This document shows, one piece after another, positions 5,841 through 54,933 of a stretch of DNA of 64,000 bases. Each line of letters begins with the position of its first letter. Position 1 is the stretch's first letter. A program made the translations under genes and the position numbers. The notes below the pieces were generated by a model, which saw nothing but the letters and a program-made list of their open reading frames with translations, had not been told where the DNA came from and did not search any database. The stretch is from an uncultured Gemmatimonadaceae bacterium (GTDB taxonomy: Bacteria; Gemmatimonadota; Gemmatimonadetes; Gemmatimonadales; Gemmatimonadaceae), in NCBI GenBank assembly GCA_963790305.1, contig CAWBOC010000010.1, positions 192,001 to 256,000 on the forward strand. The letters run 5' to 3'.

Positions 5841-5937
5841 TGAGGGAGCAGGGAGGAGAAGTGGGGAAATCGAGTGAAGTGCTTCCCAATGTGGTGCACT
5901 TCAATCAATTTCCCCACTCCTCGTTTCTCGTTCCTCA
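5841..5937. repeat. Intergenic palindrome with 7-nt periodic arms (GTGAGGA/TCCTCAC-like family)
   Basis: GAAGTGGGGAAATCGAGTGAAGTGC pairs with GCACTTCAATCAATTTCCCCACTCC; right arm reads TCCCCAC TCCTCGT TTCTCGT TCCTCAT. Confidence 0.7.
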
Positions 5938-5952
5938 TTGCTCTCCAGGCGC

Positions 5953-8554
5953 ATGCATCGTCGCATAGCTCTCGGCGTTCTCTCGGCGGTTTCCCCCTTC
6001 GTACTGCAGGCCCAGCATTCTTTCTCTGAAGGTGGCGGCGTACGACGCCGCCGTCCCGACGCCGCAAAGCGTCCTCGGCTACGAGATCGGCGAGCGGTTC
6101 ACTCCCCATCACATGATCATGCGCTATCTCGATCGCCTCGCGGCGACGAGCCGGCGCGTGAAGGTCGACACGGTCGCGCACACCTTCGAGGGGCGCGAGG
6201 TCGTCATGGTCATCGTCACCGGTGAGGCGAATCAGGGACGCATCGACCAGATTCGCGCCGACAACGCCCGGCTCGCGACACTCACCGGCTCGGCGGCGGA
6301 GCTCGACGCGATTGCCGCTCGCTTGCCGGCCGTGGCGTGGCTCGGCTTCAGCGTGCACGGCGACGAAGCGTCGGGAGTCGAGGCGGCGATCGCGCTGCTG
6401 TATCAGCTCGCCGCCGGGACGGACGCCGACACGCGACGCGTTCTCGATGAGACGGTCGTGCTCATCGATCCGGCGCAGAATCCCGACGGGCACGAGCGAC
6501 ACGTTCAGGATGTCATGCGCATGCGCACCGCGTTCGGCGTTCCGACGTCACCCGATGCGCGCGCGCACACGTCGAATTGGCCGGGGCCGCGCACGAGCCA
6601 CTACTACTTCGACATGAACCGCGACTGGTACATCCAGTCGCATCCGGAGACGCGCGGACGCATTCGGTCGATGCTCAGCTGGTGGCCGCACGTCGCCGTC
6701 GACTTGCACGAGATGGGGTCGAACTCCACGTACTTCTTTCCGCCGCCCATGGCGCCGGTCAACAAGAACGTGCATCCGTCGATCATCCGCTGGTGGGATG
6801 TGTACGCCGCGGCGAACGCGGCGGCGTTCGATCGGCATGGCTGGTCGTACTTTCGGCGGGAGGGGTACGACGAGTTTTATCCGGGCTACGGATCCTCGTG
6901 GCCGCTCTACGCCGGCGCGATCGGGATGACGTACGAGCAGGCGTCGAGCGAAGCCGGCGCGATTCGCCGCGATGATGGAACGATCCACACGCTGCGCGAC
7001 GCGACCTGGGGCCACTACACGACGGCGTGGGCGACGGTCGACGCCACGGCTCGCAATGCGCGGCAGCGCGTACGCGATTTCCTCGCCTATCGACGGAGTG
7101 CCGTAACCGATGCGCAACGTGTCGCGGCGCGCACCGTGATCATCGAGCGGGACGCATACGCGCGTGCCGATTCGCTGGCCCGTCGTCTTTCCGACAACGG
7201 CATTGTCGTCGGGCTCGCACGCTCCGTGGATGTCCGGAGCGCGACGCCGTATCCGGGGAATTCTCCCGGTTCCGGGGGATCCCTCGCCTCGGCGTACGTC
7301 GTCGACCTCGCTCAGCCGCAGGGCAGGCTCGCACGCGCGATTCTCGAGCCGGATGCCGAGCTCGACTCCGCGTTCATCGCCGAGGAGCTGGAGCGGCGGC
7401 GGGCCGGCCGGTCGGATCGCTTCTACGACGCGACGGGATGGAGTCTCCCGTACACGTATCGCGTGCGCGCCTGGATGTCGCGAGCCCCGGTGACCTCGTC
7501 GCCGGTGGACACTGCATGGCGATCGACGGCGACCGCTCCGGACAGCGCGCGGTATGGCTACGCGATCGAAGGTGGAACTGAAGCAGGCTATCGGCTGCTC
7601 GCCGCCTTGCTGCGCGACAGCGTCCGCGTGTGGTACCAGCCGGGCGCGTTTCGATCGGGCAGCTCGCGCGTGGGTCGTGGCTCGTTCGTCGCGCGCGTGG
7701 TTGGCAACGGGCCACGGCTGCACGCACTCGTCAGGCAGCATGTGGCGGCCGCTGGCGCCCCGGTGGTGAGTCTCTCGGGGTCGGGGGTCGACGAGGGATT
7801 CGATCTTGGGAGCAACCTCGTCTTTCCAGTGCGTCAACCACGAGTGGCGATCATCGCCGGCCCGGGTGTGAGTGGCCAGTCAGCCGGGTACGCGTGGTAC
7901 ATGATGGATCAACGCCTGCGCTATCCGGCCACGATTCTCGATCCAACCGCGGTGAGCGGAGCGATGCTCGACGACTACAACGTGATTGTCCTTCCGTCCG
8001 TGCAAGGCGCCTTTTTCGAGCGCATGCTCAGCGAAGGGGGTCGAGACCGCCTTGCATCGTGGGTGCGGGCGGGTGGCACGCTGGTGACGCTCGAGGCAGC
8101 GACCGCCTGGGTCGCCACCGAGCGGGTCGGATTGTCGCGCCTCCGCGTTCGACGCGACTCCGTGCGAGCCGACAGCTCCGCGGGCGCGCCGCTGCCGGCC
8201 GGGGTCCCTGGCGCCATCGTGCGTGTCGTCGCGGACACGCTCTCTCCGTTGCTGGCGGGAATCGTCGAGCGCGAGTTCCCCGCCTACATCTTCTCGGACC
8301 GCGTGTTCACCTTTCCGCGCGACGTGCGGGCGGGGGAGTCGGTCCTGCGCTACGCACCGGAGTCTCGGCTGCGAATCGCGGGATATCTCTGGCCGGAGGT
8401 TCCGTCGCGACTGGGGGACTCGCCATTCCTGTGGACCGAGAGCGTGGGCCGCGGACGCGTGATCTCGTTTGCGGTGGATCCCAACTTCCGCGACATGTGG
8501 CGCGGCCTGCTTCCCCTGTTCGCGAACGCGGTGATGCTGGGGCCCAGCATGTGA
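5953..8554 (+). CDS. M14 family zinc carboxypeptidase (frameshift near 6030)
   Basis: HGDE, NPDG, DMNRDW, DLHEM and MTYEQ motifs. The signal peptide lies in another frame (5953-6030), implying an indel. Confidence 0.88.
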
Positions 8555-8874
8555 GCTACGATCGCGGACTGGCCGAGCGCGTCACCGACGTGCTGGCGCG
8601 AATGAGCGTTCGCGGTGCCCGACAGAAGAACGTGTTCGGCGGACGCGGCTTTCTCCTCGGGAAATCCGCGTTCGTCATTGTGTGGGACGACGGGCTGATC
8701 GTGAAGTGTCCGCCCCCCGAGTACGCGGCGGCGCTGGCGTCGCCGCACGTCGAGCCGTTCGCTCCCGATGGCGAGAAGCCGATGAGCACGTGGGTCGTCG
8801 TCGCTGGTGACGCCATCGCCGACGATCCCGAGCTGGAGGAGTGGCTGGGGCGGGGGATGCGCGCGCTTCGGTAA
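8551..8874 (+). CDS. TfoX/Sxy N-terminal domain protein
   Basis: (M)SYDRGLAERV..KNVFGGRGFLL..PMSTWVVV..LEEWL; GTGA overlap with the upstream gene. Confidence 0.8.
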   Translation: MSYDRGLAERVTDVLARMSVRGARQKNVFGGRGFLLGKSAFVIVWDDGLIVKCPPPEYAAALASPHVEPFAPDGEKPMSTWVVVAGDAIADDPELEEWLGRGMRALR

Positions 8875-8883
8875 CGGGAGCGC

Positions 8884-9780: not shown

Positions 9781-9788
9781 TCCGTTGA

Positions 9789-11192
<1,404 letters not shown>

Positions 11193-11193
11193 C

Positions 11194-11843
11194 GAGTCGG
11201 AATGCGGAATGCGGAATTCGGATTGCGAATGGTCATGGGAAAGATGTATGGCGGTGAATGAATGCGGAATGCGGGATCCGGATACCAGCAGTAGCGGCGA
11301 ACGCTTTATGGTCGAATTGACAGCGACTGCGCAGGTCTCCTTGGAGTCAATCCTGGGTTCACCCCATTATCTCAGGTGGGCATCAGCGTTGCAGCCCAAT
11401 GTCACCGCAGATCCGTTGTGGCGTGTGTCAGCATATCGGCTCAGTTCCTACCTCGGCGACATGGCGTGGGACGACGCACGCGCCCTGTGGCTAACGGGGT
11501 AACGCGGCCCGTCGCGTCGCAACTGTACCGAGCGGTTTGGTCTGTCTCGGCAAACATGGCGGAGGGATATAGTCGATCATCCGGCCGCGATCGGGCACGC
11601 ATCTTCGAATACGCGCTGGGGTCCGCTCGAGAAGCAGCGGTCTGGTACCAGGCCGGACGTCACGTGCTCTCTGACGAAATCCTCAGCGTTCGACGTGCAA
11701 CGCTAGCGGAAATCAGGCGGCTGCTGCTGGTGATGGTGCCAGTGGAGCGTAAGAAATGAAGCGGGCTCCGAATTCCTCCGTTCGGAGCCCTCAGACCACT
11801 CGTACCTCTCGTAGAAATCCGCATTCCGCATTCCGCATTCGAG
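11194..11843. mobile_element. Cassette bounded by inverted (GGAATGC)n heptamer repeats, carrying a four-helix-bundle gene
   Basis: Left end CGGAATGCGGAATGCGGAATTCGG; right end ATCCGCATTCCGCATTCCGCATTCGA. Sits between co-oriented sucB and lpdA. Mobility is inferred, not shown. Confidence 0.6.
11308..11759 (+). CDS. Four-helix bundle protein (23S rRNA IVS protein/TIGR02436-like), frameshift near 11490
   Basis: DPLWRVSAYRLS in one frame, then SQLYRAVWSVSANMAEGYSRSSGRDRARIFEYALGSAREAAVW (family signature) in the next frame. Confidence 0.82.
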
Positions 11844-11848
11844 CGCGA

Positions 11849-13117
11849 TCAGTCCACCAGCATTCCCCCCGGCTCCTCGACCAGCTCCTTCAGGCGCACC
11901 AGAAACAGCACCGCCTGCTGGCCATCGACGATCCGGTGATCGTACGACAGCGCCACGTACATCATCGGGCGGATCTCCACCTTGCCATCGAGCGCGACAG
12001 GGCGGTCCTGGATCTTGTGCAGGCCGAGAATTCCCGACTGCGGGGAGTTGAGGATCGGGGTCGACACCAGCGAGCCGAAGACGCCGCCGTTCGTGATCGT
12101 GAACGTGCCACCGGTGAGATCGTCCATCGAGAGCTTGCCGTCGCGCGCGCGCTTCGCGACGTCGATGATGTCGCGGGAGATCTGTAGCAATCCCTTCGTG
12201 TCGGCGTCCTTGATCACCGGAACGACCAGCCCCTGGTCCGAGGCGACCGCGACGCCCATGTGGACGTAGTGCTTGTAGACGATGGAGTCGCCGTCGATCT
12301 GCGCATTGACGATCGGATACGACTTCAGCGCCATGCACGCCGCGCGCACGAAGAAGGGCATGAAGGTGAGCTTGACGCCTTGCTCTTTCTCGATGCGCTC
12401 CTTCAAGCGGTCGCGCAGGCGCATCACCGCGGTCATGTCGACTTCGTTGAACGTCGTGAGATGCGCCGTACTGCGCTGCGCCTCGAGCAGGTGCTCCGCG
12501 ATGCGCTTGCGGCGCGTCGACATCTTCTCGCGCGTTTCTCGAGAACCGGAAGGCGCGGGGGACTTAGGCGCTGGAGGCGCTGAAGGCGCTGGCGGGGCCG
12601 GCGGCGTTGCGGGCGCCGAGGGCGCCACACGACCGGGCGCCGTCGCCGACGCGGCGAGCATGTCGCCCTTGGTGACGCGGCCATCACGGCCGGTTCCCTC
12701 CACCTGCGCCGGGTCGACTCCCGTCTCGGCAGCGACGCGCCGAACGGACGGGGACGTCTTCGTCTCTCCGCCTCCGGCGCGTGGTGGAGCGGGTGCCGGC
12801 GCAGCCGGCGCCGACGGCGCTCCTTCCGTCCTCGTCGCAGCCGGCGCTTGCTGCGCGGTCGCGCCGGCGGCTGCCGGCACGGCCGCCTCGTCGAGCTCGC
12901 CCAGGGTCTCGCCGACCTTCACGACGTCGCCGTCATTCTTGAGGCGCTTCGCGAGGACCCCCGACGCCGGCGCGGGCACCTCGACGTTGATCTTGTCCGT
13001 CTCGAGCTCGACGAGCGCGTCACCCTTCTGCACGGCGTCGCCCTCGTTCTTGAGCCACCGCGCGATCGTTCCTTCGACAATGGATTCGCCGAGAGCCGGC
13101 ACCTGAATCGCAGTCAT
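11849..13117 (-). CDS. sucB: 2-oxoglutarate dehydrogenase E2, dihydrolipoamide succinyltransferase
   Basis: Lipoyl domain ELETDKINVEV, E3-binding TSPSVRR..GTGRDGRVTKGD, catalytic SYDHRIVDG. Start MTAIQVPALGES at 13117. Confidence 0.93.
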   Translation of the reverse strand: MTAIQVPALGESIVEGTIARWLKNEGDAVQKGDALVELETDKINVEVPAPASGVLAKRLKNDGDVVKVGETLGELDEAAVPAAAGATAQQAPAATRTEGAPSAPAAPAPAPPRAGGGETKTSPSVRRVAAETGVDPAQVEGTGRDGRVTKGDMLAASATAPGRVAPSAPATPPAPPAPSAPPAPKSPAPSGSRETREKMSTRRKRIAEHLLEAQRSTAHLTTFNEVDMTAVMRLRDRLKERIEKEQGVKLTFMPFFVRAACMALKSYPIVNAQIDGDSIVYKHYVHMGVAVASDQGLVVPVIKDADTKGLLQISRDIIDVAKRARDGKLSMDDLTGGTFTITNGGVFGSLVSTPILNSPQSGILGLHKIQDRPVALDGKVEIRPMMYVALSYDHRIVDGQQAVLFLVRLKELVEEPGGMLVD

Positions 13118-13205
13118 GATGCAGTGATCCCCGAGTGTGCTTCCGATTGCTCGCCGCCACGTGCCGGCATAGGATTCTGCCGAAAATATAACCCCGAGTC
13201 TTCGC

Positions 13206-14252: not shown

Positions 14253-14340
14253 CCGAATTCGGAATGCGGAAGACGGATACCGGCGATACCGAATCGCGGC
14301 GTCTCAGCTGCCATTCCGCATTCCGAATTCCGCATTCGAG
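14253..14340. repeat. Empty palindrome of the GGAATGC heptamer family
   Basis: CCGAATTCGGAATGCGGAA ... CCATTCCGCATTCCGAATTCCGCATTCGAG; the right end matches that of the 11194-11843 cassette. Confidence 0.8.
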
Positions 14341-14870: not shown

Positions 14871-15091
14871 CCGAGCAGGCGCAGTACGAGTCCGACGAGC
14901 AGCGAGTGATTCGCGAGAGCTGGGTGCGCGATTCCGCGGCGACCTGCCCACGCTGTGGCGTCGCCATGACCTCTCGCCCGATCGGCGGAGGCTCCTTCGG
15001 CCTGGGCTATGCGCGTCGGCGAACCTGGCTGATCTGCCCTTCCTGTCGCCGAAGCGTCATCTTCGACCGGGCACGGGGAACCAGGACCTGA
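14867..15091 (+). CDS. Small zinc-ribbon protein
   Basis: CPRC...CPSC; ATGA overlap with the upstream gene. Confidence 0.7.
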   Translation: MTEQAQYESDEQRVIRESWVRDSAATCPRCGVAMTSRPIGGGSFGLGYARRRTWLICPSCRRSVIFDRARGTRT

Positions 15092-15135
15092 GTACATATT
15101 CCTGTTCCTGATTCCCGGTCCTGACACCCCACTTC

Positions 15136-21019: not shown

Positions 21020-21048
21020 GGAAGGCACGGACGCCCAATGCAATGGAG

Positions 21049-21087
21049 AAACAGAGAGCGCGCAGTCAGCGCTCTCTGTTTTTTTTT
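21049..21087 (+). terminator. Intrinsic terminator after gyrA
   Basis: AAACAGAGAGCGC-GCAGTCA-GCGCTCTCTGTTT followed by a T-run. Confidence 0.85.
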
Positions 21088-21212
21088 GATCTTCCGCCGC
21101 CCGGCCCCCTCCTTGCGTGCACTTTTCAGGCTCAGCGCGGTGGCGGGTCGTGAGAACCTCTCGTCGATGCGCCCCAGGCCCGCGTGCATTGGCTGGAGAG
21201 GGAATAGTGACG

Positions 21213-29569: not shown

Positions 29570-29869
29570 CTTGTGCCAGGGTCTACCCACGAAGTTTCGA
29601 CGACGGGGGTGAGCCTTGATAACCCCCCGCCACGGAACCATTCCGCAGCGTCCGCAGGCACCTCACGCGCGATGCCGCGCGTCGCAGATCTTCACGATGC
29701 ACCGTTAGGCACGCCAGTTCGGGTACGTCGCACGTCGGTTCGTCAGCAGCATCCCTTGCCACTTCCAGTCCGCGATCGGCGTTGAACATGGCCGCGGAAG
29801 CGTGGAGCGGTAAGGTCTCACCTCCAAGTGTCGGTGAGCGTCCACTCCCCACCCTGTAGAGGCAGACGT

Positions 29870-32800: not shown

Positions 32801-32973
32801 CGGCGCGGCCGGTGCGCGTCTACGTGTCGGGCGACAATCTGTTCCTGCTGACGGACTACACGGGCTATGATCCGGAAGTGCACACCGACGCGGGGCTGGC
32901 CTCGCGAGGGATCGAGTACGTCACGTATCCGCGTGCCCGCACGTTCACGGCCGGCTTCCGCGTTCAGTTCTGA
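29870..32973 (+). CDS. susC: SusC/RagA family TonB-dependent receptor (frameshift near 31495)
   Basis: CarboxypepD_reg N-domain; plug signature [69 protein letters not shown]..F terminus. Confidence 0.93.
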
Positions 32974-34571: not shown

Positions 34572-34635
34572 AGTGAGAAGTGAGGAGTGAGGAGTGAGGA
34601 ATCCGCTTTCCCTCCTCACTCCTCATTCCTTTTTT
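34572..34635. repeat. Palindrome of (GTGAGGA)n heptamers followed by a T-run; possible terminator after susD
   Basis: AGTGAGAAGTGAGGAGTGAGGAGTGAGGA ... CCTCCTCACTCCTCATTCCTTTTTT. Confidence 0.75.
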
Positions 34636-34657
34636 GTCACGAGCCCCATAAGGCTGC

Positions 34658-34854
34658 CATCCAGGTTCAAAGTGGGGACGCGGATTACGCGGATGCAGCG
34701 GATCAGGCGGATCGTTCGTGGCGCATTGATCCCTCCTCTACCGCAACAAAAAAAGCCAAATCCTTGGCTGCGCGAGGAGAGCTTTTAGCGCCAGGAATAA
34801 TCCGCCCGATCCGTTGAATCCGCGTGATCCGCGTCCCAACTTTGAACCTGGATG
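34658..34854. repeat. MITE/REP-like element, ~55-bp terminal inverted repeats with 9-nt (CGGAT-containing) periodicity
   Basis: CATCCAGGTTCAAAGTGGGGACGCGGATTACGCGGAT... versus ...ATCCGCGTGATCCGCGTCCCAACTTTGAACCTGGATG. Confidence 0.8.
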
Positions 34855-34899
34855 CCGGCCCCGCAGCGCCGAAACTCGATGATCTCGACGACACCAACG

Positions 34900-37800: not shown

Positions 37801-38435
37801 CCGTACCTCAAGTCGCGCTATCTGGCCTACAAGGATTATGCGCGCCAGACGGTGACAGACATTTTCTCACCCGAGGATCTGTCGGGCGCGGTGTTGAAGC
37901 AGGCGCGCACCTTCGCGACGGTGATGGCGAGGAATGACGGCAACGGAGCCTTCACGCTCGTTCCTCTGCCGATCGAGGCGCAGACGACTGCCGATCTACG
38001 GCATTCTCGCCGCGGACTACGATCGCGACGGCGCGCTCGATGTGCTGCTCGCCGGCAACTTCGACGGCGTGAAGCCGGAGATCGGCCGGATGGACGCGGG
38101 ATACGGCGTCTTCCTTCGTGGCGACGGGAAGGGAGGGTTCACCGCCCCGCCGTGCGGTCGAGAGCGGCTTCTTCGTTCCTGGCCAGGCGCGCGACATTCA
38201 GCGTCTACGCACTCGCCAAGGGGAGTTGTACGTGGTCACTCGAAACAACGACCGGCCACTGGTATTTCGCGTTACGGCGAGCTGGTGGTCTGCACGCAGG
38301 CAAATAGAAATCGGTGTGGCGAGGCCCAATAAGACATCGGGGTCGAAGCGGGGACGCGGACTGCGGCAGGGATACTGCGGATTCACCGCGAATTGCTCTA
38401 CGGGCGAAGGTGACTTCCTGCGCGAGGCGAGTTAG
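34900..38435 (+). CDS. VCBS/FG-GAP repeat lipoprotein with ASPIC/UnbV domain (CRTAC1-like), copy 1; several frameshifts, 3' end uncertain
   Basis: YRNYYNGGGVAIGD, many D.NGDG.LD repeats, SNGAAYGDLDGDG, GAKV..RGFQSS, GWWN; spread over about 8 frame segments. Confidence 0.85.
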
Positions 38436-38499
38436 GAGCGATCCGGTCGTATTCCGCTGTAATCCGTGTAATCCGCAGTCCCAACTTTGACCCTGGATG
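38335..38499. repeat. Second, degenerate copy of the 34658-34854 element
   Basis: Right end AATCCGTGTAATCCGCAGTCCCAACTTTGACCCTGGATG nearly matches the first copy; left end CATCGGGGTCGAAGCGGGGACGCGGA. Confidence 0.75.
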
Positions 38500-38533
38500 C
38501 GAGCATTAAAGCGTTTCACTGTGTGAGGCACGA

Positions 38534-40607: not shown

Positions 40608-42666
40608 ATGCTCATGAGGATGCGACCGACTCGAACCCTTACATTCGCCGTAGCTTTTGGGACGTTCACCGCGGCCGGGGCGCCCGCTCAGAACCAGGTC
40701 CGCGTCGAGTCGCCCGATCGCCGGAACGTGGTGACGGTCGAGGTGCGCGATGGAGGCCTGTACTACAGCATCCAGCGCGACAATCGCGCGATCTTTCTCC
40801 CGTCGCGCCTGGGCTTCGAATTTCAGGGTGCGGCGCCGTTGCGTGATGGGCTTCGCATCACAGGCTCGACCGCTCGGACGGTCGATACCGTGTGGACGCA
40901 GCCGTGGGGAGAAGTCGCGCGGGTGCGGGACAACCATAACGAGCGCCGGATCTCAGTGAGCGAGGCCGCTGCGGGCGGGCGCCAGCTCGTCGTCGTGTTC
41001 CGTGTCTTCAACGATGGCGTGGGCTTCCGTTACGAGTTCCCGGAGCAGTCGGGGCTCGGAGAGTTCGCGATCACTGCAGGAGCTCACCGAGTTCGCGCTC
41101 GCCGACGACGCCCGCGCCTGGTGGATTCCCTCCAACCGCGCTCGACTCGACCGGTCGGAGATGCTCTATTCCTCGTCCCCGGTGAGCGTGCTCGACAGCG
41201 TGCAGACCCCGTTGACGATGGAGACGCGCGACCGCCGGACCTTCATCGTGATCCACGAAGCCAACCTCGTCGACTATGCGCGAATGTTCCTCGCGGGTCG
41301 CGGGATGGAGGTTCGAACGCTCCGCGCGACGCTGGCACCGTGGGCGGACGGAATCAAGGTTCGCGGTAGAACCCCCTTCGTCACACCGTGGCGCACGATT
41401 CAGCTCGCGGATCGCGCGACCGATCTCGCCCCGTCGGTGCTGGGCCTCAATCTCAACCCGCCGAGTGCGATCGCGAACACGGACTGGATCAAGCCGATGA
41501 AGTACGTCGGCATTTGGTGGGGGATGCACATCAATACGATGACGTGGAGCTCCGGCCCGAAGCACGGCGCGACGACGGAGAACACGAAGCGCTACATCGA
41601 CTTCGCCGCGGCGAACGGCCTGGGTGGCGTGCTCGTGGAAGGGTGGAACGTGGGCTGGGATGGCGACTGGATCGCCAACCGCAACGCGTTCTCGTTCACG
41701 CAGCCCTACCCGGACTACGACCTGCCAGGGCTCGCGGCCTACGCGAAGCAGAAGGGCGTGAAGCTGATCGCGCACAACGAGACATCGGGTGGCATCGAGA
41801 ACTACGAGCGGCAAATGGACAGCGCCTTCGCGCTCTATCGCTCACTGGGTATCGATGCGATCAAGTCGGGCTACGTCACGGACACCGTCGGCGGGGGACA
41901 CTCACACTATTCGCAGTTTGCCGTGCGTCATCACCGCAAGGTGATCGAGACGGCCGCGAAGTACGGGATCATGCTGGACGTGCACGAGCCAATCCACGAC
42001 ACCGGCGAGCGTCGCACCTGGCCGAACATGATGACGCGCGAGGGTGCGCGTGGGCAGGAGTACAACGCGTGGGGCGGCGAGGGCGGCAATCCGCCGGAGC
42101 ACGAGACGATTCTGTTCTTCACGCGCCTGCTCGCCGGCCCGATGGATTTCACCCCGGGCGTGTTCGACATCCTCTTCGAGCGCAGCACGGGTCGCGCGCG
42201 GCGCCCGGAGGAGTCGCGCGTTCGCACCACGCTCGCCAAGCAGCTCGCGCTGTACCTGGTGCTCTACTCGCCGCTCCACATGGCGGCGGACTTACCCGAG
42301 AACTACGCGAACCAGCCGGCATTCCAGTTCATTCGTGACGTGGCCGTGGACTGGGACACGACGCGCGTGATCGATGGAAGCATCGGCGACTACGTGGTGG
42401 TGGCGCGCAAGGCACGCAACAGCCCGGAGTGGTTCGTGGGCGCGATCACCGATGAGGAGGCCCGCACCTTCACGGTGCCGCTGTCGTTCCTGCCTCGCGG
42501 CCGTAGCTATGTGGCCGAGATCTATGCCGATGGGCCGAATGCGCATTGGCTGACGAACCCGCTGCCAGTGGCGATCTCTCGGCGTCCGGTGACGTCGGCG
42601 TCAACGCTGCGACTGGTGCTGGCGCCCGGTGGCGGGCAGGCGATTCGAATCCGTCCGGCGCGATAA
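40608..42666 (+). CDS. Glycoside hydrolase family 97 (SusB-like alpha-glucosidase), frameshift near 41075
   Basis: FRVFNDGVGFRYEFP, KYVGIWWGMH, VLVEGWN.GW, HNET, REGARGQEYNAW, GPMDFTPG. Confidence 0.93.
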
Positions 42667-45600
42667 TGAGGGTGCTCAGGGTGCTCAGGGTGCTCGAGGT
42701 GCTCAGGGAGCGCGTGATGAAATCGCGTCGCGCGCTGCGCACGCTGACTACCCTGAGCACCCTGAGCACCCTTGCCGGATGCAATCGCGCCGAGAGCGCG
42801 CCGCCGCTGTTCGAGCTGCTGCGGCCCGAGGCGACGGGCGTGACGTTCGTCAACGAGCTGCCGGAGAGCCGCGAGTTCAACATCCTGAACTATCTCTACT
42901 ACTACAACGGCGGTGGAGTGGCGGCGGGGGACATCGACAACGACGGGCTCACCGATCTGTACTTCACGTCGAACCTCGGGTCCGACCGGCTCTATCTGAA
43001 CAAGGGGAACTATCGGTTCGAGGACATCACCGAGACGGCCGGGGTGAAGGGACCGGACGGGTGGTCGAGCGGCGTCACCATGGCGGACGTCAATGGAGAT
43101 GGCCGTCTCGACCTCTACGTGTCGGCGGTCCACTACCTAACGATGACCGGCCGCAACGTCCTGTACGTCAACAATGGCGATCGGACCTTCACCGACCGCA
43201 CCACGGAATACGGGCTGGATCACGCCGGATACTCCACCCAGGCGGCGTTCTTCGATTACGACATCGACGGCGATCTGGACATGTATCTCCTCAATCACTC
43301 GATCCACATCGAGCGGTCGGTGAGCCAGAAGCCGCAGCGGTCGCCGCCGTCACCCGCGGGCGGGGGACAAGCTCTTCCGCAACGACGGCAACCGCTTCGT
43401 CGACGTGAGCGACAAGGCCGGGATCTACGGTGGCGTCGAAGGATATGGCCTCGGGGTCGTCGCCAGCGACCTGAACGTGGACGGATGCCCCGACCTCTTC
43501 GTCGCCAATGATTTTCAGGAGAGCGACTTCCTGTACATCAACAATTGCGACGGGACCTTCACCGAGTCGATCGGCCGGGCGATGGGGCACACCAGCCGAT
43601 TCTCGATGGGAGTCGACGCCGCCGACTTACAACAACGATGGGCGCCCGGACCTCATGGTGCTCGACATGCTCCCGGAGCGCGAGGACATCCTGAAGACGT
43701 CGGCGAACGCCGAAAACTTCAACATCTACGATCTGAAGGTGAAGGCGGGCTATCACCCTCAGTTCGCGCGCAACACCCTGCAGCTGAATCGCGGCGCTGG
43801 TCGATTCAGCGAGATCGGCTATCTGGCCGGCGTGTACGCGACCGACTGGAGCTGGGCGCCGCTCTTCGCCGACCTCGACAACGACGGCAACAAGGACCTG
43901 TTCATCACCAACGGGATTTACCGTCGTCCGAACGATCTCGACTACATCAACTACGTCAGCAACACCGAGTTCCAGCGGACGCTGGCCATGTCACTGCCCG
44001 ATCGCATCACCGAGCAGAACATGACGCTGCTGCAGCACATGCCGCAGATTCCGCTGGCGAGCTTCGCGTTCCGCAACAACGGCGACCTGACGTTCACCAA
44101 TCAGGCGGAGGCGTGGGGGCTGGCGCAGCCGGGCTTCTCGAATGGTGCGGCGTACGCCGACTTGAACAACGACGGTGCGCTCGATCTCGTGGTGAGCAGC
44201 GTCAACGGGCCAGCGAGAATCTACCGGAGTCGCGCGAGGGAGAATGGAGGCCACTTCCTGACGGTGCGACTCGAGGGCGAGGGAGCGAACACCGCGGGAG
44301 TCGGCGCCAAGGTCATCGTCCGGCATGGCGCCATTCGACAGCTGCTGGAGCAGATGCCGACTCGCGGCTTTCAGTCGTCGGTCGAGCCGCGCCTTCACTT
44401 CGGGCTCGGTCCGGCGCAGACGATCGACTCGCTCCTCGTGGTGTGGCCGGATCGGCGCTTCCAGGTGCTCACCAACGTCAGTGCCGATCGTGCGCTCACG
44501 CTGTCGCAACGCGATGCCGCTGGGCGGTACGCATATGCACCGCCGACGCCCGGCGCCAGTGTTCGCCGATGTCACGACCGACGCCGCCATCGACTTCACG
44601 CATCGCGAGAACACGTTCTTCGACTACAACCGCGAGCCCTTCATCCCGCATCGGGTCTCGACGGAAGGGCCGGCGCTCGCCACGGGTGATGTCAACGGCG
44701 ACGGGCTCGATGACATCTACGTCGGCGGCGCGAAGTGGCAGGCGGGCGGCCTGTTCGTGCAGCAGCGAGACGGGGGCTTCCGCGCGAGCAACCGGGGCGT
44801 GTTCGGCGCCGATAGTCTGCATGAGGACGTCGACGCGGCGTTCTTCGACGCAAACGGCGACGGGTACGCCGACCTGTACGTGGTGAGCGGCGGCAACGAG
44901 TTCTGGGGAGAGGAAGAAGCGCTACGCGACCGCCTCTACCTGAACGATGGCCGAGGCAACTTCCGACGCGCGACCGACGCTCTTCCTGCGATCTTCGAGA
45001 ACGGATCAGCCGTGGTCCCGGCCGATTACGATCGCGACGGTGACGTCGATCTTTTCGTAGGGAGCCGCGTCGTCGCCCGCGGCTACGGCCTTGCCCCGCG
45101 CAGCCATCTGCTTCAGAACGACGGTAAAGGGCGGTTTGCCGACGTGACGGGCGAGAAGGCGCCGGAGCTCGCCACGGTCGGGATGGTGTCATCGGCGACG
45201 TGGACCGACTACGACGGCGACTCCCGTCTCGATCTCGTGGTCGTCGGCGAGTGGATGCCGGTGACCGTAATGCGGAATTCGGAAGGCGGAAAACTACAGA
45301 AGGTCCGGATCTCCGGTCTCGAGCACAGCGACGGCTGGTGGAACACCGTCACCGCCGCCGACGTCAACGCCGATGGTCGCGCCGACCTCGTGCTTGGCAA
45401 TCTCGGGCTCAACTCGTACATCCGTGCCTCGCAGGATGGGCCCGCGCGGCTCTACGTCCATGATTTCTTTCAGACCGATGCGCTCAAGCAGGTCCTCACG
45501 TTCTACAAGAATGGCGTGAGCTATCCGCTCATGGGGCGCGACGACTTCGTGCGGACGATGCCGCAGCTGCGCAGCAAATACGACTCGTACGCGAAGTTCG

Positions 45601-46109
45601 GGGCGGCACGTATCGAGGACATCTTCCCGCGCGAGCAGCTCGAGAAGGCAACCGTTCTCGAGGCGCACCAGTTCGCGAGCGCCATCGCGCTCAACAAGGG
45701 CAACGGAGGATTCGACCTCCAGCCGCTGCCTGCCGAAGCGCAGTTCGCGCCCGTGTACGCCACGATGGCCGAGGATTTCGATGGCGATGGCCGCGTCGAC
45801 ATCCTGCTCGGCGGCAACTTCGACGGGGTGACGCCCCTGCTCGGGCGATACGACGCGAGCTATGGCCTGCTGCTTCGCGGGGACGGGACAGGCCGTTTCG
45901 CTTCGATGGATCTCGCCGAGAGCGGGTTGCTCATCGAGGGGCAGGTGCGCGACATGAAGCCGCTAAGACATGTGACGGGGCGCGTGATCGTGGTCGCGCG
46001 AAACGACGACCGCCTTCAGCTGCTGCGGACGCTCCGGGGTTCCGGCCTAACGCGGGTCAGTGCGCAGGCTTCAGCCGACGCTGGACGGCCGCGCTCGTCA
46101 GCTCCCTGA
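42666..46109 (+). CDS. VCBS/FG-GAP repeat lipoprotein with ASPIC/UnbV domain, copy 2 (frameshifts near 43350, 43625, 44550)
   Basis: Same motif series as copy 1; lipobox LAGC; TAATG coupling to GH97 (alternative start 42717). Confidence 0.88.
42668..42774. repeat. Inverted (AGGGTGCTC)n nonamer palindrome within the 5' end of the gene
   Basis: AGGGTGCTCAGGGTGCTCAGGGTGCTCGAGGTGCTCAGGG ... CCCTGAGCACCCTGAGCACCCT. Confidence 0.85.
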
Positions 46110-46845: not shown

Positions 46846-47047
46846 TTTTGGAACCGCAGAATGGCCGCAGAAGGCCGCAGATGCTTCACTGCGAATGGGA
46901 CAGGCTCCATGCGAGATGAAGTTCCCAAGGCTCCTTGGTCACAACTGCGCGGAATCAGGTCGGGCGCCAGGGCCATCTGCGTCATTTGCGTTCATCTGCG
47001 GCCAACAAAGCCTTTGCGGCCTTCTGCGGCCATCTGCGGTTCCAAAA
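46846..47047. repeat. ~200-bp palindrome with 10-nt (GGCCGCAGAA) periodic arms
   Basis: TTTTGGAACCGCAGAATGGCCGCAGAAGGCCGCAGA ... TTTGCGGCCTTCTGCGGCCATCTGCGGTTCCAAAA. Confidence 0.85.
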
Positions 47048-49155: not shown

Positions 49156-49288
49156 GCAACAGCGTTTTTTTACCGCAGAGGGCGCAGAGGACGCGGAGGC
49201 AACGTCAACTGCAAAGGCCTTTGGAAAAGCCCTCGCCGTTGACGTTCCTCCGCGTCCTCTGCGCCCTCTGCGGTAAAAATGCTGTTGC
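49156..49288. repeat. Palindrome with 9-nt (CGCAGAGGG) periodic arms
   Basis: GCAACAGCGTTTTTTTACCGCAGAGGGCGCAGAGGACGCGGAGG ... CCTCCGCGTCCTCTGCGCCCTCTGCGGTAAAAATGCTGTTGC. Confidence 0.88.
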
Positions 49289-49407
49289 GGGCCAAGCCGT
49301 ACCGACTGTCTCGTTAGGCGGGTATGCACTGGCGCCCTCGCCCCCGCACGACCATCATTTGCCCAGTTACCACCCTTAGAAGAACGGCTGGAGCGGAGGC
49401 TCCCCCA

Positions 49408-49587: not shown

Positions 49588-52124
49588 CTCCCCGAGACGG
49601 CCCCTCGGCGACGATCTTCGCGCCCTTCTCCGGGATCCTCGTTCCCCTCGATGACGTCCCGGATCCCGCGTTCGCGCAGCGGCTCGCTGGCGACGGGATC
49701 GCGATCGACCCGCTCGACCAGCGGGTCGTGGCACCCTGCGACGGGCGCGTGCTCCAGGTGCATCGCGCCGGTCACGCGCTCACGCTGTCCGCGTTCGGGC
49801 TCGAGATCCTCATCCACGTGGGGCTCGATACCGTCAAGCTGAAGGGCAAGGGATTCAAGGCCCGGGTGAAGGCGGGCGACGAGGTCCGAAAAGGCGAGGA
49901 GCTGATGACGTTCGACGCCGACTACATCGCGACGAACGCGCTCAGCCTGATCTCGCCGGTGCTGGTGACGAACATGGACCGCGTCACGTCGCTCCGTCCC
50001 CGAACGGGGAAGGTCCGCGCCGGGGACCTCCTGCTCGAGATCGGCACCGGCGGCATCGCCACGCCGCAGGGCACCGATCTCCTGCGCGACGCCGTCCGTT
50101 CGGCGCCCGTCGTGATCACGCACGAGTCCGGACTGCATGCCCGCCCAGCGGCCGTCGTCGCCGCGGCGGCCCGCCAGTTCACGTCCGACGTCAGGCTCGT
50201 CAAAGGCGACCGCGAGGCGAACGCGCGGAGCCTCGTGTCGATCATGGCCCTCGAGGTCGGGCGGGGCGACTCGGTGACCGTCGTGGCTCGGGGCGAGGAT
50301 GCACAGCAGGCCATTGCCGGGATTACGCGGACGCTTTCTGCCGAACCCGCCGCGCACGGCGCGGCGCCGACGGCCAAGCGGCAACCGGAACGCTCCGCGG
50401 CAGCGCCCAGAGGCGCGGCGCCACCGTCGCGCGATGATGGAGCGTTGCGAGGCGTGCCGGCGTCTCCGGGCGTCGCGGTCGGGCAAGTGTTTCAGCTCCG
50501 ACACGACGACGCCGTCGTCGAGGAGCGCGCCGCGGACGCCAACCACGAGCGGCGCGAGCTCGAGGCGGCGATCGCTTCCGCACACCTTCAGCTCGAGGCC
50601 ATGCGCTCGCGTATGGCCACTGAAGCCGATGCCGATCGGGCCGCCATCTTCGCCGCGCACCAGGAGCTGCTCGAGGATCCCGAGGTGCTTGACGCCGCCG
50701 CGGAGCACATACGGGAGGGGGCGAGCGCGGCCTTCGCCTGGCGCGAGGCGTACACCGCGCAGTCGGACCGGCTCGCGGCTCTTGCGAACCCGCTGCTCGC
50801 TGGCCGCGCTGCCGACCTTCGTGATGTCGGCCGGCGCGTGCTCCACCTGCTCGTCGGCCGGGATGACACGCCCCACGATGTGCCAGCCGACTCGATCATC
50901 GTCGCCGAGGACCTCGCGCCGTCCGATGCGGCGACGCTGGATCGCACCCGGGTGCGCGGTTTCTGCACGACGATGGGAAGCGCCACATCCCACGTCGCCA
51001 TTCTCGCCCGCGGACTTGGCATTCCGGCGGTCGCTGGCATCGATCCGCGTGTGCTCGACATCCCGAACGCGACGCGCGTGATACTCGATGGCGACGCTGG
51101 CACGCTGCAAATGGGCCCGACTGCTGCCGAGGAAGGGGAGATCGCGAAGAGGCAGGCGGTGGCGGCGCGGCAGCGGACTGCTGAGCTCGCCGTCGCCTTC
51201 GAGGCGGCGGTCACACGGGATGGCCATCGCGTCGAAGTCGTCGCCAACATCGGCGACGAAAAAGAGGCGCGAGAGGTTGCCGAGGTCGGCGGCGAGGGTG
51301 TCGGGCTTCTGCGCACGGAGTTTCTCTTCATGGAGCGGCGCACGGCACCTGACGAGGAAGAGCAGACGCGCACGTACGAAGCGATCGCGCGCGCGCTCGG
51401 CCCCGATCGCATCCTCGTCATTCGCACGCTCGATGTCGGCGGCGACAAGCCTCTGCCGTACATGCCGATGGGGGCGGAGGCCAACCCGTTCCTCGGCGAG
51501 CGCGGAGTGCGACTGTCGTTGAATCGCCCCGAGTCATTCCGGGCGCAGATTCGCGCGATTCTTCGCGCGTCGAAGGTGGGGAAGGTCGCGATGATGTTTC
51601 CAATGATCTCGACGCTCGCGGAGTGGCGCACGGCGCGCCAGCTGGTCGAGGAGGAGCGCGCGAAGCTTGGCGTCCCACGCATTCAGGTTGGCATCATGGT
51701 CGAGACGTCATCGGCGGCCCTCATGGCCGATCGCTTCGCCGAAGATGCCGACTTTTTCTCGATCGGGACGAACGACCTCACGCAGTACACGCTGGCGATG
51801 GATCGGACGAATCCGCGCCTGGCGGCGCAGGTCGACGCCCTGCATCCGGCCGTGCTGCGGCTCATCGAGCACACGGTCGCGGGCGCGCGCAAGCACAAGC
51901 GATGGGTGGGCGTGTGCGGTGCCCTTGCCGGCGATCTTCAGGCGGTTCCGGTGCTGGTAGGCCTCGGCATCGATGAGCTGAGCGTGAGCGTGCCGATCGT
52001 GCCGGCGGTGAAGGCGCGCGTGCGCTCACTGCTTCTGTCGGAGTGCACGGAAACCGCTCGTCAGGCGCTGGATGCCGCTGATGGGTCCGAGGTCCGTGCG
52101 TTGGTGGCGAAGCGCCATACCTGA
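49584..52124 (+). CDS. ptsP: Multiphosphoryl transfer protein EIIA(Glc)-HPr-Enzyme I fusion
   Basis: [13 protein letters not shown]; HPr [43 protein letters not shown]. Confidence 0.93.
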
Positions 52125-52175
52125 CCCCTGGGGTCAGGAGTCAGGGTCGGGGGGTTGTAGGGGAGAGGAGTCAGG
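52120..52175. repeat. Short hairpin plus degenerate GGAGTCA heptamer repeats between PTS genes
   Basis: CCTGACCCCTGGGGTCAGGAGTCAGGGTCGG...GAGGAGTCAGG. Confidence 0.5.
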
Positions 52176-52210
52176 TTGTCCCTAGTTCCTTTGTCTCTCT
52201 GGAGACCGAT

Positions 52211-53999: not shown

Positions 54000-54032
54000 C
54001 CAGGAGGATTCGCTGGCCACCTCCCTCGGCGC

Positions 54033-54779
54033 TCAGGGCGTCGTCTTGCTCAGCCCCGTGACGGTGCCGTCGGTGTTGTGGGCGAACCGGACGCCGTAGA
54101 TACCATCCGTCGACTTCAGCTTCCCCGCCGTGACGAGCGCTGATTTGTCGTAGGTCGCGACCGTCTTCCCGTTGATCGCGCACTCGACCTTGTCGCCCTT
54201 GACCGACAGCGCGATCTGCTGCGTGACCGGCTGATTCTTGCCGGCCGCCTTGTTCACCGCCGCGTTCGCCTCACCGCGGCCGCCGTTCATCTGGAACGAC
54301 TCCGGCCCAAATCCTCTCACGATGAAATTGCCGTTGCCGTACGCCGAGCAGTACAGATACGACTGCTGGTCGGTGCCCATGTCGTTGCCACCGATGAACA
54401 AGCCGTATGGGTGGGGATGGTCGTTGACGTTCATGTACTGCGGCTCGTTGAACGTCGCGCTCACGGTGTAATTCCCGGTCGCGGTGTTGGCCGGATTCCA
54501 GTACACGACCGCGGGCCCCGTGGTCACGAGGAGCGTGTCGCCTCGCTGCTCCAGCTTCGCGTTCTCGAGCTTCTGTCCCGCGCTCGCTTCCTTCGGATCA
54601 ATGCGCCCGCTCCATCCCGAGGCGGCGATTCCACCAGCGGCGACTTCGCGAGTTCCCTCATCCATCGGGGCGGCGGTGGCTGTGGTGTCGCCAGCACTGC
54701 TTGTGTCCTCGCCGCGGGCGCATCCGAGTGCGACGAGCAGAGCAGCCGAGAGGGCGATGAGTCCACGTGAATGCGACAT
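54033..54779 (-). CDS. Hypothetical lipoprotein (concanavalin-like beta-sandwich/DUF1080-like)
   Basis: Lipobox ALGC; beta-rich; ..[17 protein letters not shown] pattern. Confidence 0.6.
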
Positions 54780-54852
54780 CGGTCAGGCCTCGTTGTATGT
54801 GTGTCCCTTTATATGGAGGCGCTCCGTTCCGGTGCGCAAGCGGGGGAATGTC

Positions 54853-54933
54853 AGAGAGGCGCTAGAGGCGCTAGAGGCGCTAAAGGCGCTGAGCGATCCG
54901 CCTTTCAGCGCTTCTAGCGCTTCTAGCGCCTCC
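54853..54933. repeat. Inverted (AGAGGCGCT)n nonamer palindrome
   Basis: AGAGGCGCTAGAGGCGCTAGAGGCGCTAAAGGCGCTGA ... TCAGCGCTTCTAGCGCTTCTAGCGCCTC. Confidence 0.88.

What the first reader, a model, noticed from the sequence alone, without database searches (positions are those of the whole stretch)
5841..54933. Family of intergenic palindromes sharing architecture but not sequence: inverted 7-10 nt tandem repeats
Seen: at least ten elements in which each arm is a short tandem array and the two arms are reverse complements. Units are GTGAGGA (5841, 34572), GGAATGC (11194/11843, 14253), a CGGAT-containing 9-mer (34658, 38335), AGGGTGCTC (42668), GGCCGCAGAA (46846), CGCAGAGGG (49156) and AGAGGCGCT (54853). 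Partial ones lie at about 15097-15131 and 52120. The purine-rich arm is always 5' on either strand, and the elements sit tightly between genes, often inside operons. Ordinary REPs share one sequence, whereas here the design is shared. One element carries a gene (next finding). Inference: empty and loaded forms of a little-described insertion or RNA-processing system, with slippable stems acting as cleavage, stability or recombination substrates.
Basis: partly seen in the sequence, partly recalled or inferred. Interest (0 to 1): 0.78.

Follow-up and report, generated by a model that had tools for sequence, protein, structure and literature searches.

The report
Hairpin repeats that carry small genes
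This soil-bacterium genome is peppered with long DNA hairpins built from short repeated units, and they look like the mostly empty shells of small gene-carrying insertions that also occur in several other bacterial phyla.

Summary
The window holds at least ten intergenic palindromes whose arms are inverted arrays of 7-10-nt units: 6 pairs by a strict detector against 0.03 expected. All nine scored have the purine-rich arm 5'. They are not canonical terminators, match no Rfam family, and are not kept at orthologous junctions in four Gemmatimonadaceae relatives.

The claim of shared design without shared sequence is only partly right. Several sequence families exist, and two recur in Gemmatirosa kalamazoonensis, which has about 29 strict elements in 500 kb. 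Three of those lie in frame inside genes.

Loaded forms exist. The window copy at 11184-11856 encloses a frameshifted four-helix-bundle gene. Arms of the window E9/E10 type enclose GxxExxY (PD-(D/E)XK) genes in Bacteroides, Bernardetia and Sphingomonas plasmids, and flank one in Gemmatirosa.

Best reading: mostly empty copies of hairpin-bounded insertion cassettes, comparable to REP/RAYT systems and to ORF-bearing 23S rRNA intervening sequences. The mobilising enzyme and the RNA-level role are inferred, not shown.

The parts
5841..5937 (.). E1: hairpin with 42-nt arms (79% complementary). The purine run is only weakly periodic. Starts 6 nt after the stop of the OMP beta-barrel gene 5220-5834.
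   Evidence: I4; -57 kcal/mol
11184..11856 (.). E2: loaded element filling the spacer between the 2-oxoacid dehydrogenase E2 gene (11849-13120, minus strand) and the Lpd gene (9789-11192, minus strand). Outer arms are 41 nt, 80% complementary and 591 nt apart.
   Evidence: (I5, I15, I20)
11194..11231 (+). E2 left arm A: (GGAATGC) about 5 copies, abutting the Lpd start codon.
11260..11283 (+). E2 left arm B: a second GGAATGC-type array. Homologues P0001-P0003 have the same kind of array just upstream of the gene.
   Evidence: (I15)
11308..11759 (+). Four-helix-bundle gene (PF05635 / TIGR02436), antisense to the E2-Lpd operon. Frameshifted near 11497 relative to the intact 171-aa homologue P0001 (95% identical over the C-terminal 88 aa).
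11814..11841 (+). E2 right arm: (GCATTCC) about 3.3 copies, ending 8 nt before the stop codon of the E2 gene.
14253..14337 (.). E3: empty GGAATGC hairpin, 3-5 nt after the stop of the ADH gene. Both boundaries match E2 (25/30 and 25/26).
15065..15125 (.). E4: weak partial hairpin (-27 kcal/mol) with a 13-nt repeat in the pyrimidine arm.
34572..34640 (.). E5: (GTGAGGA)4 hairpin, 25 nt after the SusD stop. It is the only element followed by a T-run (T6).
   Evidence: (I13)
34652..34860 (.). E6: 209-nt palindrome with 87-nt arms (82% complementary), GCGGATnnn 9-mers, and termini CATCCAGGTTCAAAGT... (-150 kcal/mol).
   Evidence: (I1)
38335..38500 (.). E7: second member of the E6 family, 28 nt after the stop of the ASPIC/FG-GAP gene.
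42668..42772 (.). E8: (AGGGTGCTC)4.4 hairpin. Starts 2 nt after the GH97 stop and ends 7 nt before the next ATG (-85 kcal/mol).
   Evidence: (I2)
46846..47045 (.). E9: GGCCGCAGAA 10-mer arms with a 121-nt loop, T-run 5' and A9 3'. Lies in a divergent spacer. Empty member of the GAACCGCAGAGG family.
   Evidence: (I11)
49165..49279 (.). E10: T7-ACCGCAGAGGG... arms (33 nt, 100% complementary), A5 at the 3' end. By my count its arm is 27/31 identical to the arm enclosing a GxxExxY gene on a Bacteroides plasmid.
   Evidence: (I3)
52120..52150 (.). E11: weak partial case (small hairpin plus GTCAGGA/GTCAGGG) in the 86-nt spacer of the PTS genes.
54853..54935 (.). E12: (AGAGGCGCT)4 opposite (AGCGCTTCT)2.6. 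The right arm abuts the stop codon of the amidohydrolase gene (minus strand). Each arm carries its own unit variant.
   Evidence: (I7)

Best explanation
The palindromes are copies, mostly empty, of hairpin-bounded insertion cassettes.

A copy consists of two inverted arrays of a short purine-rich unit. A loaded copy holds one small gene in the loop. Here that gene is a frameshifted four-helix-bundle (4HB) gene. Elsewhere it is a GxxExxY PD-(D/E)XK nuclease-family gene, whose arms belong to the same family as window elements E9/E10.

Copies land in spacers just behind stop codons. They also land inside operons and, in a relative, in frame inside genes. They are gained and lost between relatives, and their arms then lengthen and shorten independently by replication slippage.

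Shown: existence and statistical excess, the sequence families, cross-genome and cross-phylum recurrence, non-orthologous positions, in-gene copies, the loaded forms, and unequal arms.

Inferred:
- The copies spread by insertion or recombination at the DNA level, with the GxxExxY nuclease as candidate mobilising enzyme. This would parallel RAYT genes, which sit between their REP repeats.
- On transcripts, the long stem loops the insert out and offers a duplex of 20 bp or more to RNase III and 3' exonucleases. That would explain why insertions inside operons are tolerated.
For: Excess and placement:
- Statistical excess and intergenic placement.

Families:
- E2/E3 share boundaries. E6/E7 align. 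E9/E10 share termini with L001.
- In 500 kb of Gemmatirosa megaplasmids the strict detector finds 36 pairs, about 29 of them convincing. The C[AG]C[AG]GAG family has 20 copies with conserved TTGAACCGCAGAGG... ends, and the GCGGATC family is also present.

Not orthologous:
- Synteny GyrA-MSch-ADH-E2-Lpd is kept in 4 of 4 Gemmatimonadaceae loci.
- The E2-Lpd spacer is 656 nt and loaded in the window. It is about 40 and 80 nt without a hairpin in L001 and L006. L002 has a one-armed GGATTGG array, and L037 has a LOG-family gene.
- L002 and L001 carry hairpins where the window has none.

Insertion:
- Three GGGACTC-family copies lie in frame in high-GC3 bodies of ClpV1, AcrB-type and topoisomerase IA genes.
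- In ClpV1 the site is a length-variable linker: 6-52 aa in 107 homologues, mode 14, Gemmatirosa 23.

Cargo:
- 4HB gene in the window.
- Homologues P0001-P0003 have N-terminal ORF extensions that translate GGAATGC-type arrays. P0009 and P0021 have C-terminal read-throughs that translate (GCAGTCC)n.
- An Opitutaceae 4HB gene lies between 30-nt inverted arms.
- A Gemmatirosa GxxExxY gene (PF13366, E 1.2e-22) lies between two family hairpins.
- GxxExxY genes are enclosed by inverted arms in Bacteroides (30 nt, 90%), Bernardetia (28 nt, 86%), Sphingomonas (25 nt, 92%, between fabD and fabG) and Prevotella (25 nt, 72%).
- The Bacteroides arm is 27/31 identical to window E10, by my count on A4.

Slippage:
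- L002 has 4 against 7.5 units in its two arms.
- E12 carries arm-specific unit variants.

Not terminators:
- None of the elements is flagged, whereas gyrA has a canonical stem plus T9.
Against: - No target-site duplication or sharp element ends were seen. Complementarity fades outward, by my reading.
- No transposase family was found among 59 window ORFs or among 62 of 120 predicted Gemmatirosa ORFs.
- Cargo is rare. No 4HB gene occurs in the 500 kb, and three 4HB queries found nothing in any plasmid.
- Only one GxxExxY gene of this subfamily occurs in all the held sequence.
- Both cargo genes examined closely are frameshifted.
- Two of 8 GxxExxY plasmid loci (Persicobacter, Fusobacteria) show no flanking arms, and Treponema is weak at 71%.
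- The relatives used for junction comparison are distant (E2 60-66% identity). Fast turnover in place would therefore look the same as mobility.
- Mismatch types show no strand bias: 24 against 18.
- Elements are enriched in convergent spacers (10 of 22 placed elements, against 49 of 242 spacers). This also fits a host 3'-end function.
Confidence: 0.55

Rival explanations
1. Hairpins grown in place, of the STRR / heptamer-SSR type. Each spacer hairpin arose and expanded locally by slippage and palindrome-templated correction, and is kept because it terminates transcription or protects mRNA 3' ends. There is no mobility, and cargo genes are incidental.
For: - Placement is 0-26 nt after stop codons.
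- Elements are enriched in convergent spacers in Gemmatirosa.
- Arm copy numbers are unequal and unit variants are arm-specific.
- A one-armed related array sits at the orthologous E2-Lpd junction of L002.
- Precedents, from passages read: cyanobacterial STRR hairpins between hupS and hupL, 'usually 7 bp repeats', with function unknown and possibly transcript stability or translational coupling (PMC2670836). Also 70-75 convergent GGGAATC pairs in Xanthomonas, mostly between the same genes in two species but variable in length (PMC4692102).
Against: - About 20 copies share conserved termini in 500 kb.
- The same arms recur in a Bacteroides plasmid with 27/31 identity.
- Three copies lie in frame inside unrelated genes.
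- Copies occur in divergent spacers (window E9; L002 9839-9979).
- No U-tract is present, and the T-run/A-run polarity is the reverse of a terminator.
Confidence: 0.2
2. Host-useful 3'-end or insulator hairpins are copied around by ordinary recombination. The 4HB and GxxExxY genes are selfish lodgers that settle in hairpin loops because the loop is a safe harbour. The arms belong to the host, not to the gene.
For: - Empties far outnumber loaded copies.
- Both cargo genes examined are frameshifted.
- In Gemmatirosa the GxxExxY gene sits between two complete hairpins rather than inside one.
- The window's E2 has two left arms and one right arm.
Against: - Arm sequence travels with the gene family across phyla with very different GC content. 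Bacteroides, Bernardetia and Sphingomonas all carry C[AG]C[AG]GA-type arms around GxxExxY.
- GGAATGC-type arrays accompany the closest 4HB homologues, at 77-95% identity.
Confidence: 0.2
3. Assembly or sequencing artefact, for example mis-joined palindromes in a long-read or metagenome assembly.
For: Several window genes look frameshifted, so the assembly may carry indel errors.
Against: - The same kind of element occurs in independent assemblies: MAG loci L001, L002 and L056.
- It also occurs in the finished PacBio genome of a cultured strain (PMC3974934 passages).
- NCBI annotates the ClpV1 gene across one of them as a 923-aa protein.
Confidence: 0.02

Closest known systems
REP / REPIN elements with their RAYT gene (Enterobacteria, Pseudomonas). 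PMC3116915 seen only as a search listing; details recalled.
   Same: Many short extragenic palindromes occur per genome, in several families. They lie mostly behind genes and rarely in divergent spacers. A small nuclease-family gene is itself flanked by the repeats (Gemmatirosa GxxExxY between two hairpins).
   Different: The arms here are tandem arrays of 7-11-nt units. The associated gene belongs to the PD-(D/E)XK (PF13366) or four-helix-bundle family, not a Y1/HUH transposase, and it can lie inside the hairpin loop. No RAYT gene was seen in the ORFs scanned.
ORF-bearing intervening sequences (IVS) of 23S rRNA. Passages of PMC4990558 read.
   Same: Terminal inverted repeats form a long stem (28 bp in the described case) around an ORF of the same protein family (S23p = PF05635). 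The paper describes the element as selfish and horizontally acquired, and the stem as cut by RNase III. The window's E2 has this architecture.
   Different: E2 lies in an intercistronic spacer of a protein-coding operon, antisense to it, not in 23S rRNA helix 9, 25 or 45. Its arms are tandem arrays. RNase III cleavage was not tested here.
Cyanobacterial STRR hairpins and Xanthomonas GGGAATC inverted heptamer repeats. Passages of PMC2670836 and PMC4692102 read.
   Same: Intergenic tandem heptamers are paired in convergent orientation and able to form stem-loops. They lie close to the upstream ORF and are variable in length. Their function is unknown.
   Different: Those genomes are described with one or a few dominant units. 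Here at least 7 units of 7-11 nt occur in 64 kb, some embedded in longer conserved palindromes and some with cargo genes. No cargo link is mentioned in the passages I read.
Rickettsia palindromic elements (recalled; not looked up)
   Same: Palindromic repeats are found in frame inside protein-coding genes, as with three GGGACTC-family copies in Gemmatirosa.
   Different: The sequence family and the host differ. No in-gene copy occurs in the window itself.
Intrinsic terminators
   Same: A stem-loop lies behind a stop codon. E5 has a T6 tail.
   Different: The stems are 17-87 nt with loops up to 121 nt. Ten of 11 elements lack a U-tract, and E9/E10 have the T-run 5' and the A-run 3'. The window's canonical terminator (21045-21085 plus T9) looks quite different.

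Membership tests
Intrinsic (Rho-independent) terminator | Short GC-rich stem with a loop of 3-8 nt, followed directly by a U-tract. | tested here: not met
   None of the elements is listed by the consensus scan of 1-60000. Only E5 has a T6 tail, and its loop is 12 nt. E9 and E10 have the T-run 5' and the A-run 3'.
REP/REPIN-RAYT system | One short palindrome conserved over many copies in a genome. | tested here: met
   Met per family. There are 20 C[AG]C[AG]GAG-family copies with conserved ends in 500 kb of Gemmatirosa. In the window there are 2-3 copies per family.
REP/REPIN-RAYT system | An associated Y1 (IS200/IS605-like) RAYT gene flanked by the repeats. | tested here: inconclusive
   No such Pfam family was found among 59 window ORFs or among 62 of 120 predicted ORFs of three Gemmatirosa loci. 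A PF13366 gene occupies the repeat-flanked position instead. Whole genomes were not scanned.
MITE | Terminal inverted repeats plus target-site duplication plus a parent IS carrying a transposase. | tested here: inconclusive
   Inverted termini are present. No direct duplication was evident in the flanks printed, checked by eye only. No transposase was seen.
STRR / heptamer SSR hairpins | Tandem 7-nt units in intergenic DNA, paired in inverted orientation. | tested here: met
   E2, E3 and E5 have 7-nt units. The other elements have 9-10-nt units, and relatives have 8- and 11-nt units.
23S rRNA intervening sequence | Insertion in helix 9, 25 or 45 of 23S rRNA. | tested here: not met
   No rRNA lies in the window. 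E2 lies between protein-coding genes.
23S rRNA intervening sequence | A long terminal stem enclosing an S23p/PF05635 ORF. | tested here: met
   The arms are 41 nt and 80% complementary (I5). PF05635 scores E 1.2e-10 and TIGR02436 E 1.5e-13.
23S rRNA intervening sequence | Excision by RNase III. | not testable with these tools
   Needs transcript-end mapping or an in vitro assay.
Four-helix-bundle protein TIGR02436 / PF05635 (cargo of E2) | HMM score above the curated cut-off. | tested here: met
   50.9 bits against a cut-off of 24, and 42 bits against 33.8. The gene is broken by a frameshift.
GxxExxY / PDDEXK_3 cassette arms (window E9/E10 as empty members) | Arms of C[AG]C[AG]GA[GA]G-type arrays with (T)TGAACC/TTCACC termini, as found around GxxExxY genes. 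| tested here: met
   Alignment A4, paired-end search and flank analysis. The window itself holds no GxxExxY gene.

The most novel reading that the evidence does not exclude
GxxExxY (PD-(D/E)XK) and four-helix-bundle genes are the cargo of a widespread, cross-phylum class of mobile cassettes bounded by inverted short-unit arrays. The nuclease would recognise the hairpin or cruciform formed by its own arms and drive copying into new spacers. Gemmatimonadaceae genomes would have been colonised by hundreds of non-autonomous empty copies. This would be a new transposable or homing element type, built on a PD-(D/E)XK enzyme and a slippable palindrome. It would also explain the origin of ORF-bearing rRNA intervening sequences.
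Probability: 0.3. Interest if true: 0.85.

Novelty: new variant of a known kind. Interest (0 to 1): 0.68.

Why it matters
- GxxExxY and four-helix-bundle proteins are very common small proteins with no assigned role. PDDEXK_3 is listed as 'Unknown' with 'multiple transfers' in the table row of PMC3424549 that I read.
- Linking them to a recognisable DNA architecture, with abundant empty derivatives, gives a testable hypothesis for what they do.
- It would explain why such genes sit inside conserved operons (fabD-fabG, E2-Lpd).
- It would supply a non-rRNA counterpart to the long-unexplained 23S rRNA intervening sequences.
- For Gemmatimonadaceae it identifies a major and apparently undescribed repeat class. 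These repeats fill many spacers and must shape operon transcripts.
- In my searches I found no paper describing these repeats in this phylum, and none describing hairpin arms around GxxExxY or 4HB genes outside rRNA. The library searched is incomplete.

Tried and rejected
- Rfam at gathering thresholds on the whole window gave 0 hits. E-value scans of E9/E10 and of L056 gave only sub-threshold miRNA-precursor-like hairpin matches. The window has no tRNA.
- Canonical terminator reading: rejected.
- My single genome-contig scan used the E2 acyltransferase as query. The other 76 served as controls.
- A test for RNA-strand selection by mismatch type was neutral, 24 against 18. The E6/E7 covariation count (1 compensatory pair) is too small and is biased by the method.
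- tblastn of three 4HB queries against plasmids found no match, so the 4HB flank survey could not be widened.
- A search of the protein collection with the translated E10 hairpin found no candidate.
- PDB sequence search with a GxxExxY protein gave no hit.
- Coding arrays resembling GGAATGC at 37506-37523 and 45266-45284 lie in FG-GAP/ASPIC genes and have no partner arm. I judged them coding coincidences.
- Structure and complex prediction were not used.

Full report
**1. Observation**

The window is about 65% GC. By gene content and nearest relatives it comes from a Gemmatimonadaceae-like bacterium.

At the reported coordinates there are long palindromes whose arms are short tandem arrays. 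A detector requires a tandem array (period 5-13) in each arm and complementarity between the arrays. It finds 6 pairs in the window, against a mean of 0.03 (maximum 1) in 60 first-order Markov resamples.

It misses E1, E6, E7 and E9. Their arms carry indels or are less regular, but they are plain.

A plain ungapped hairpin scan at score >=18 returns 7 hairpins with loops up to 800 nt, and every one is a reported element. With loops up to 200 nt the rates are:
- window: 9.4 per 100 kb
- four related loci: 2.7 per 100 kb
- 76 control loci, mostly Alphaproteobacteria: 1.25 per 100 kb
- 1.28 Mb of resamples: 0

Predicted RNA stabilities are -45 to -150 kcal/mol.

E1 is only weakly tandem. E4 and E11 are marginal.

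**2. Context**

Using the Pfam-supported gene map, the elements lie in spacers. Most start 0-26 nt after a stop codon.
- E8 fills the GH97-to-next-gene spacer, 2 nt after the stop and 7 nt before the next ATG.
- E12 abuts a stop codon.
- E2 fills the 656-nt spacer of the 2-oxoacid dehydrogenase E2-Lpd gene pair.
- E9 lies in a divergent spacer.

None of them is reported by the terminator consensus scan. The gyrA gene, by contrast, is followed by a textbook stem plus T9. E9 and E10 carry a T-run 5' and an A-run 3', the reverse of a terminator. No Rfam family matches.

**3. Shared design, and partly shared sequence**

- E3 matches E2 at both boundaries, 25/30 and 25/26.
- E6 and E7 align over their whole length with common termini.
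- E9 and E10 share T-run-(A)ACCGCAGA termini with a nested element behind gyrA in relative L001.

The purine-rich arm is 5' in 9 of 9 scored window hairpins. That it holds on both strands is automatic for a palindrome, but the polarity itself is a real bias. It is 28 of 29 in Gemmatirosa, against 18 of 33 control hairpins by my count. I have no tested explanation for it.

**4. Orthologous junctions**

Gene order GyrA-MSch-ADH-E2-Lpd is kept in all four.

The E2-Lpd spacer differs between them:
- L001 and L006: about 40 and 80 nt, with no hairpin.
- L002: a one-armed GGATTGG/GGATTGC array directly after the E2 stop.
- L037: a LOG-family gene.

Conversely, L002 has an (AGATGGG)n hairpin in the ADH/E2 divergent spacer and an 11-mer hairpin with 4 against 7.5 units. 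L001 has nested elements behind gyrA, where the window has its terminator.

The elements are therefore not fixed. At this evolutionary distance that does not separate mobility from rapid local turnover.

**5. A cultured relative is full of them**

blastn of E10 against the plasmid collection hit only the two megaplasmids of Gemmatirosa kalamazoonensis KBS708. I fetched 10 x 50 kb. The PLSDB record carries no annotation.
- The strict detector gives 36 pairs per 500 kb. About 7 are GC-rich period-6 pairs lying far apart and look like chance.
- A stricter definition (hairpin score >=15, loop <=200, arrays in both arms) gives 29.
- Three of the ten chunks have none.

The families recur:
- C[AG]C[AG]GAG 9-mers: 20 copies, with ends TTGAACCGCAGAGG...
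- GGACTGAAGAA: 7 copies
- GGGACTC: 6 copies
- AGGGCAGG: 3 copies
- GCGGATC: 2-3 copies, the E6/E7 unit with similar flanks
- several others

Of 22 elements placed in spacers, 10 are convergent, 8 co-directional and 4 divergent. The background is 49, 135 and 58 spacers respectively.

Seven elements fell inside predicted ORFs:
- three are in low-GC3 5' extensions and are probably non-coding
- one is at an ORF's 3' end
- three GGGACTC copies lie in high-GC3 gene bodies

Those three are in frame, in ClpV1/TssH, an AcrB-type transporter and a type IA topoisomerase. NCBI annotates the ClpV1 as a 923-aa protein. In 107 homologues the site is a linker of 6-52 residues. The same palindrome in three unrelated genes is hard to explain without insertion.

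The genome announcement does not mention these repeats in the passages returned.

**6. Cargo: four-helix-bundle gene**

The ORF in E2 matches PF05635 and TIGR02436. It is frameshifted near 11497 relative to an intact 171-aa homologue.

In the three closest homologues (95, 86 and 77% identity), the called ORFs run upstream into peptides that are translations of GGAATGC-type arrays. Two others read through downstream into (GCAGTCC)n. These are indirect readings from protein sequences, because their contigs could not be inspected.

The only other 4HB gene in my held DNA lies in an Opitutaceae locus. It sits between 30-nt inverted, internally repetitive arms of opposite polarity.

No 4HB gene occurs in the Gemmatirosa 500 kb, or in any plasmid with three queries.

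**7. Cargo: GxxExxY gene**

A Pfam scan covered 62 of 120 predicted ORFs from three Gemmatirosa chunks, chosen for lying near elements. It found one PF13366 gene, lying between two complete hairpins of the 20-copy family, and no transposase family. That gene is also frameshifted.

tblastn against plasmids found relatives in eight records. Their flanks show the following:

| Host | Inverted arms around the gene | Location |
|---|---|---|
| Bacteroides finegoldii | 30 nt, 90% | between radA and the next gene |
| Bernardetia | 28 nt, 86% | |
| Sphingomonas parapaucimobilis | 25 nt, 92% | between fabD and fabG |
| Prevotella nigrescens | 25 nt, 72%, plus an adjacent hairpin | |
| Treponema | 28 nt, 71% (weak) | |
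| Persicobacter | none | |
| Fusobacteria bacterium | none | |

The arms are C[AG]C[AG]GA-type arrays. By my count on alignment A4, the Bacteroides arm is 27/31 identical to the window's E10 arm. A Flavihumibacter MAG has two empty hairpins with the same ends.

E9 and E10 are therefore empty members of the arm family that encloses GxxExxY genes in other phyla.

**8. Interpretation**

The simplest account of all this is a class of hairpin-bounded cassettes with many empty derivatives. It resembles REP/RAYT systems and the ORF-bearing 23S rRNA intervening sequences, where a 28-bp terminal stem encloses an S23p ORF and is cut by RNase III (PMC4990558 passages). Arms then drift by slippage.

Two things are not shown: how the copies move, and what the stems do on RNA. 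The mismatch-type test was neutral.

The rivals remain live. They are hairpins grown in place of the STRR or Xanthomonas type, and host hairpins secondarily occupied by selfish genes.

**9. Limits**

- Gene calls in the relatives come from my own GC3 heuristic.
- Counts of 'convincing' elements involve judgement.
- The 27/31 figure and the 18 of 33 control count are hand counts from printed outputs.
- Only about 7% of the Gemmatirosa genome was sampled.
- Supplementary files of the cited papers were not consulted.

Noticed in passing
window 21045-21093: A canonical intrinsic terminator (17-pair stem plus T9) lies directly behind gyrA. This shows that the organism uses ordinary terminators, which look unlike the palindromes.
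   Followed up: partly
window 29828-32973; 34852-38307; 42629-46109; 60871-62830; 11308-11759: Several genes have Pfam domains spread over overlapping ORFs in different frames: a TonB-dependent receptor, two ASPIC/FG-GAP genes, a multicopper oxidase and the 4HB gene. They are either pseudogenes or indel errors in the assembly.
   Followed up: partly
L082 11765-11832 and 28630-28710; L083 16287-16356: GGGACTC-family hairpins lie in frame inside the ClpV1/TssH, AcrB-type and topoisomerase IA genes of Gemmatirosa. They encode peptides of the DSGLGTRDSG...ESRVPSP type.
   Followed up: partly
L056 3300-3405 and 6356-6445: A Flavihumibacter (Bacteroidota, 41% GC) MAG has two empty hairpins with the same T-run-AACCGCAGAGG...CCTCYGCGGTT-A-run ends as window E9/E10. 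One of them lies directly behind a canonical terminator.
   Followed up: partly
L054 18961-19441 and 10855-10939: An Opitutaceae 4HB gene lies between 30-nt TCTTTCTC-type inverted arms, with the pyrimidine arm 5'. An empty hairpin of the same type lies 8 kb away.
   Followed up: partly
L082 43793-44168: The Gemmatirosa GxxExxY gene is split over two frames. The N-terminal half carries the GLLESAY motif and the C-terminal half is in another frame. Like the window's 4HB gene, it is broken or mis-sequenced.
   Followed up: partly
L093 757-1185: In Sphingomonas parapaucimobilis the GxxExxY cassette sits between fabD and fabG, inside a core fatty-acid operon. This parallels the window's 4HB cassette between the E2 and Lpd genes.
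   Followed up: no
L037 11311-11940: A LOG-family (TIGR00730) gene occupies the E2-Lpd junction in one relative.
   Followed up: yes
proteins P0010-P0120: Most 'longer' 4HB homologues form a subfamily with a conserved C-terminal tail (...QRGxxLKEExxxY...LLxxVPLP) of unknown meaning.
   Followed up: no
window 37506-37523 and 45266-45284: GGAATGC-like arrays occur inside two FG-GAP/ASPIC genes, with no partner arm. They are probably a coding motif (RN.G.G) rather than elements.
   Followed up: partly
L001 1090-1445; window 11194-11283: Nested or duplicated arms occur: three left and two right arms in L001, and two left arms with one right arm in the window's E2. This suggests insertion into, or duplication within, existing elements.
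   Followed up: no
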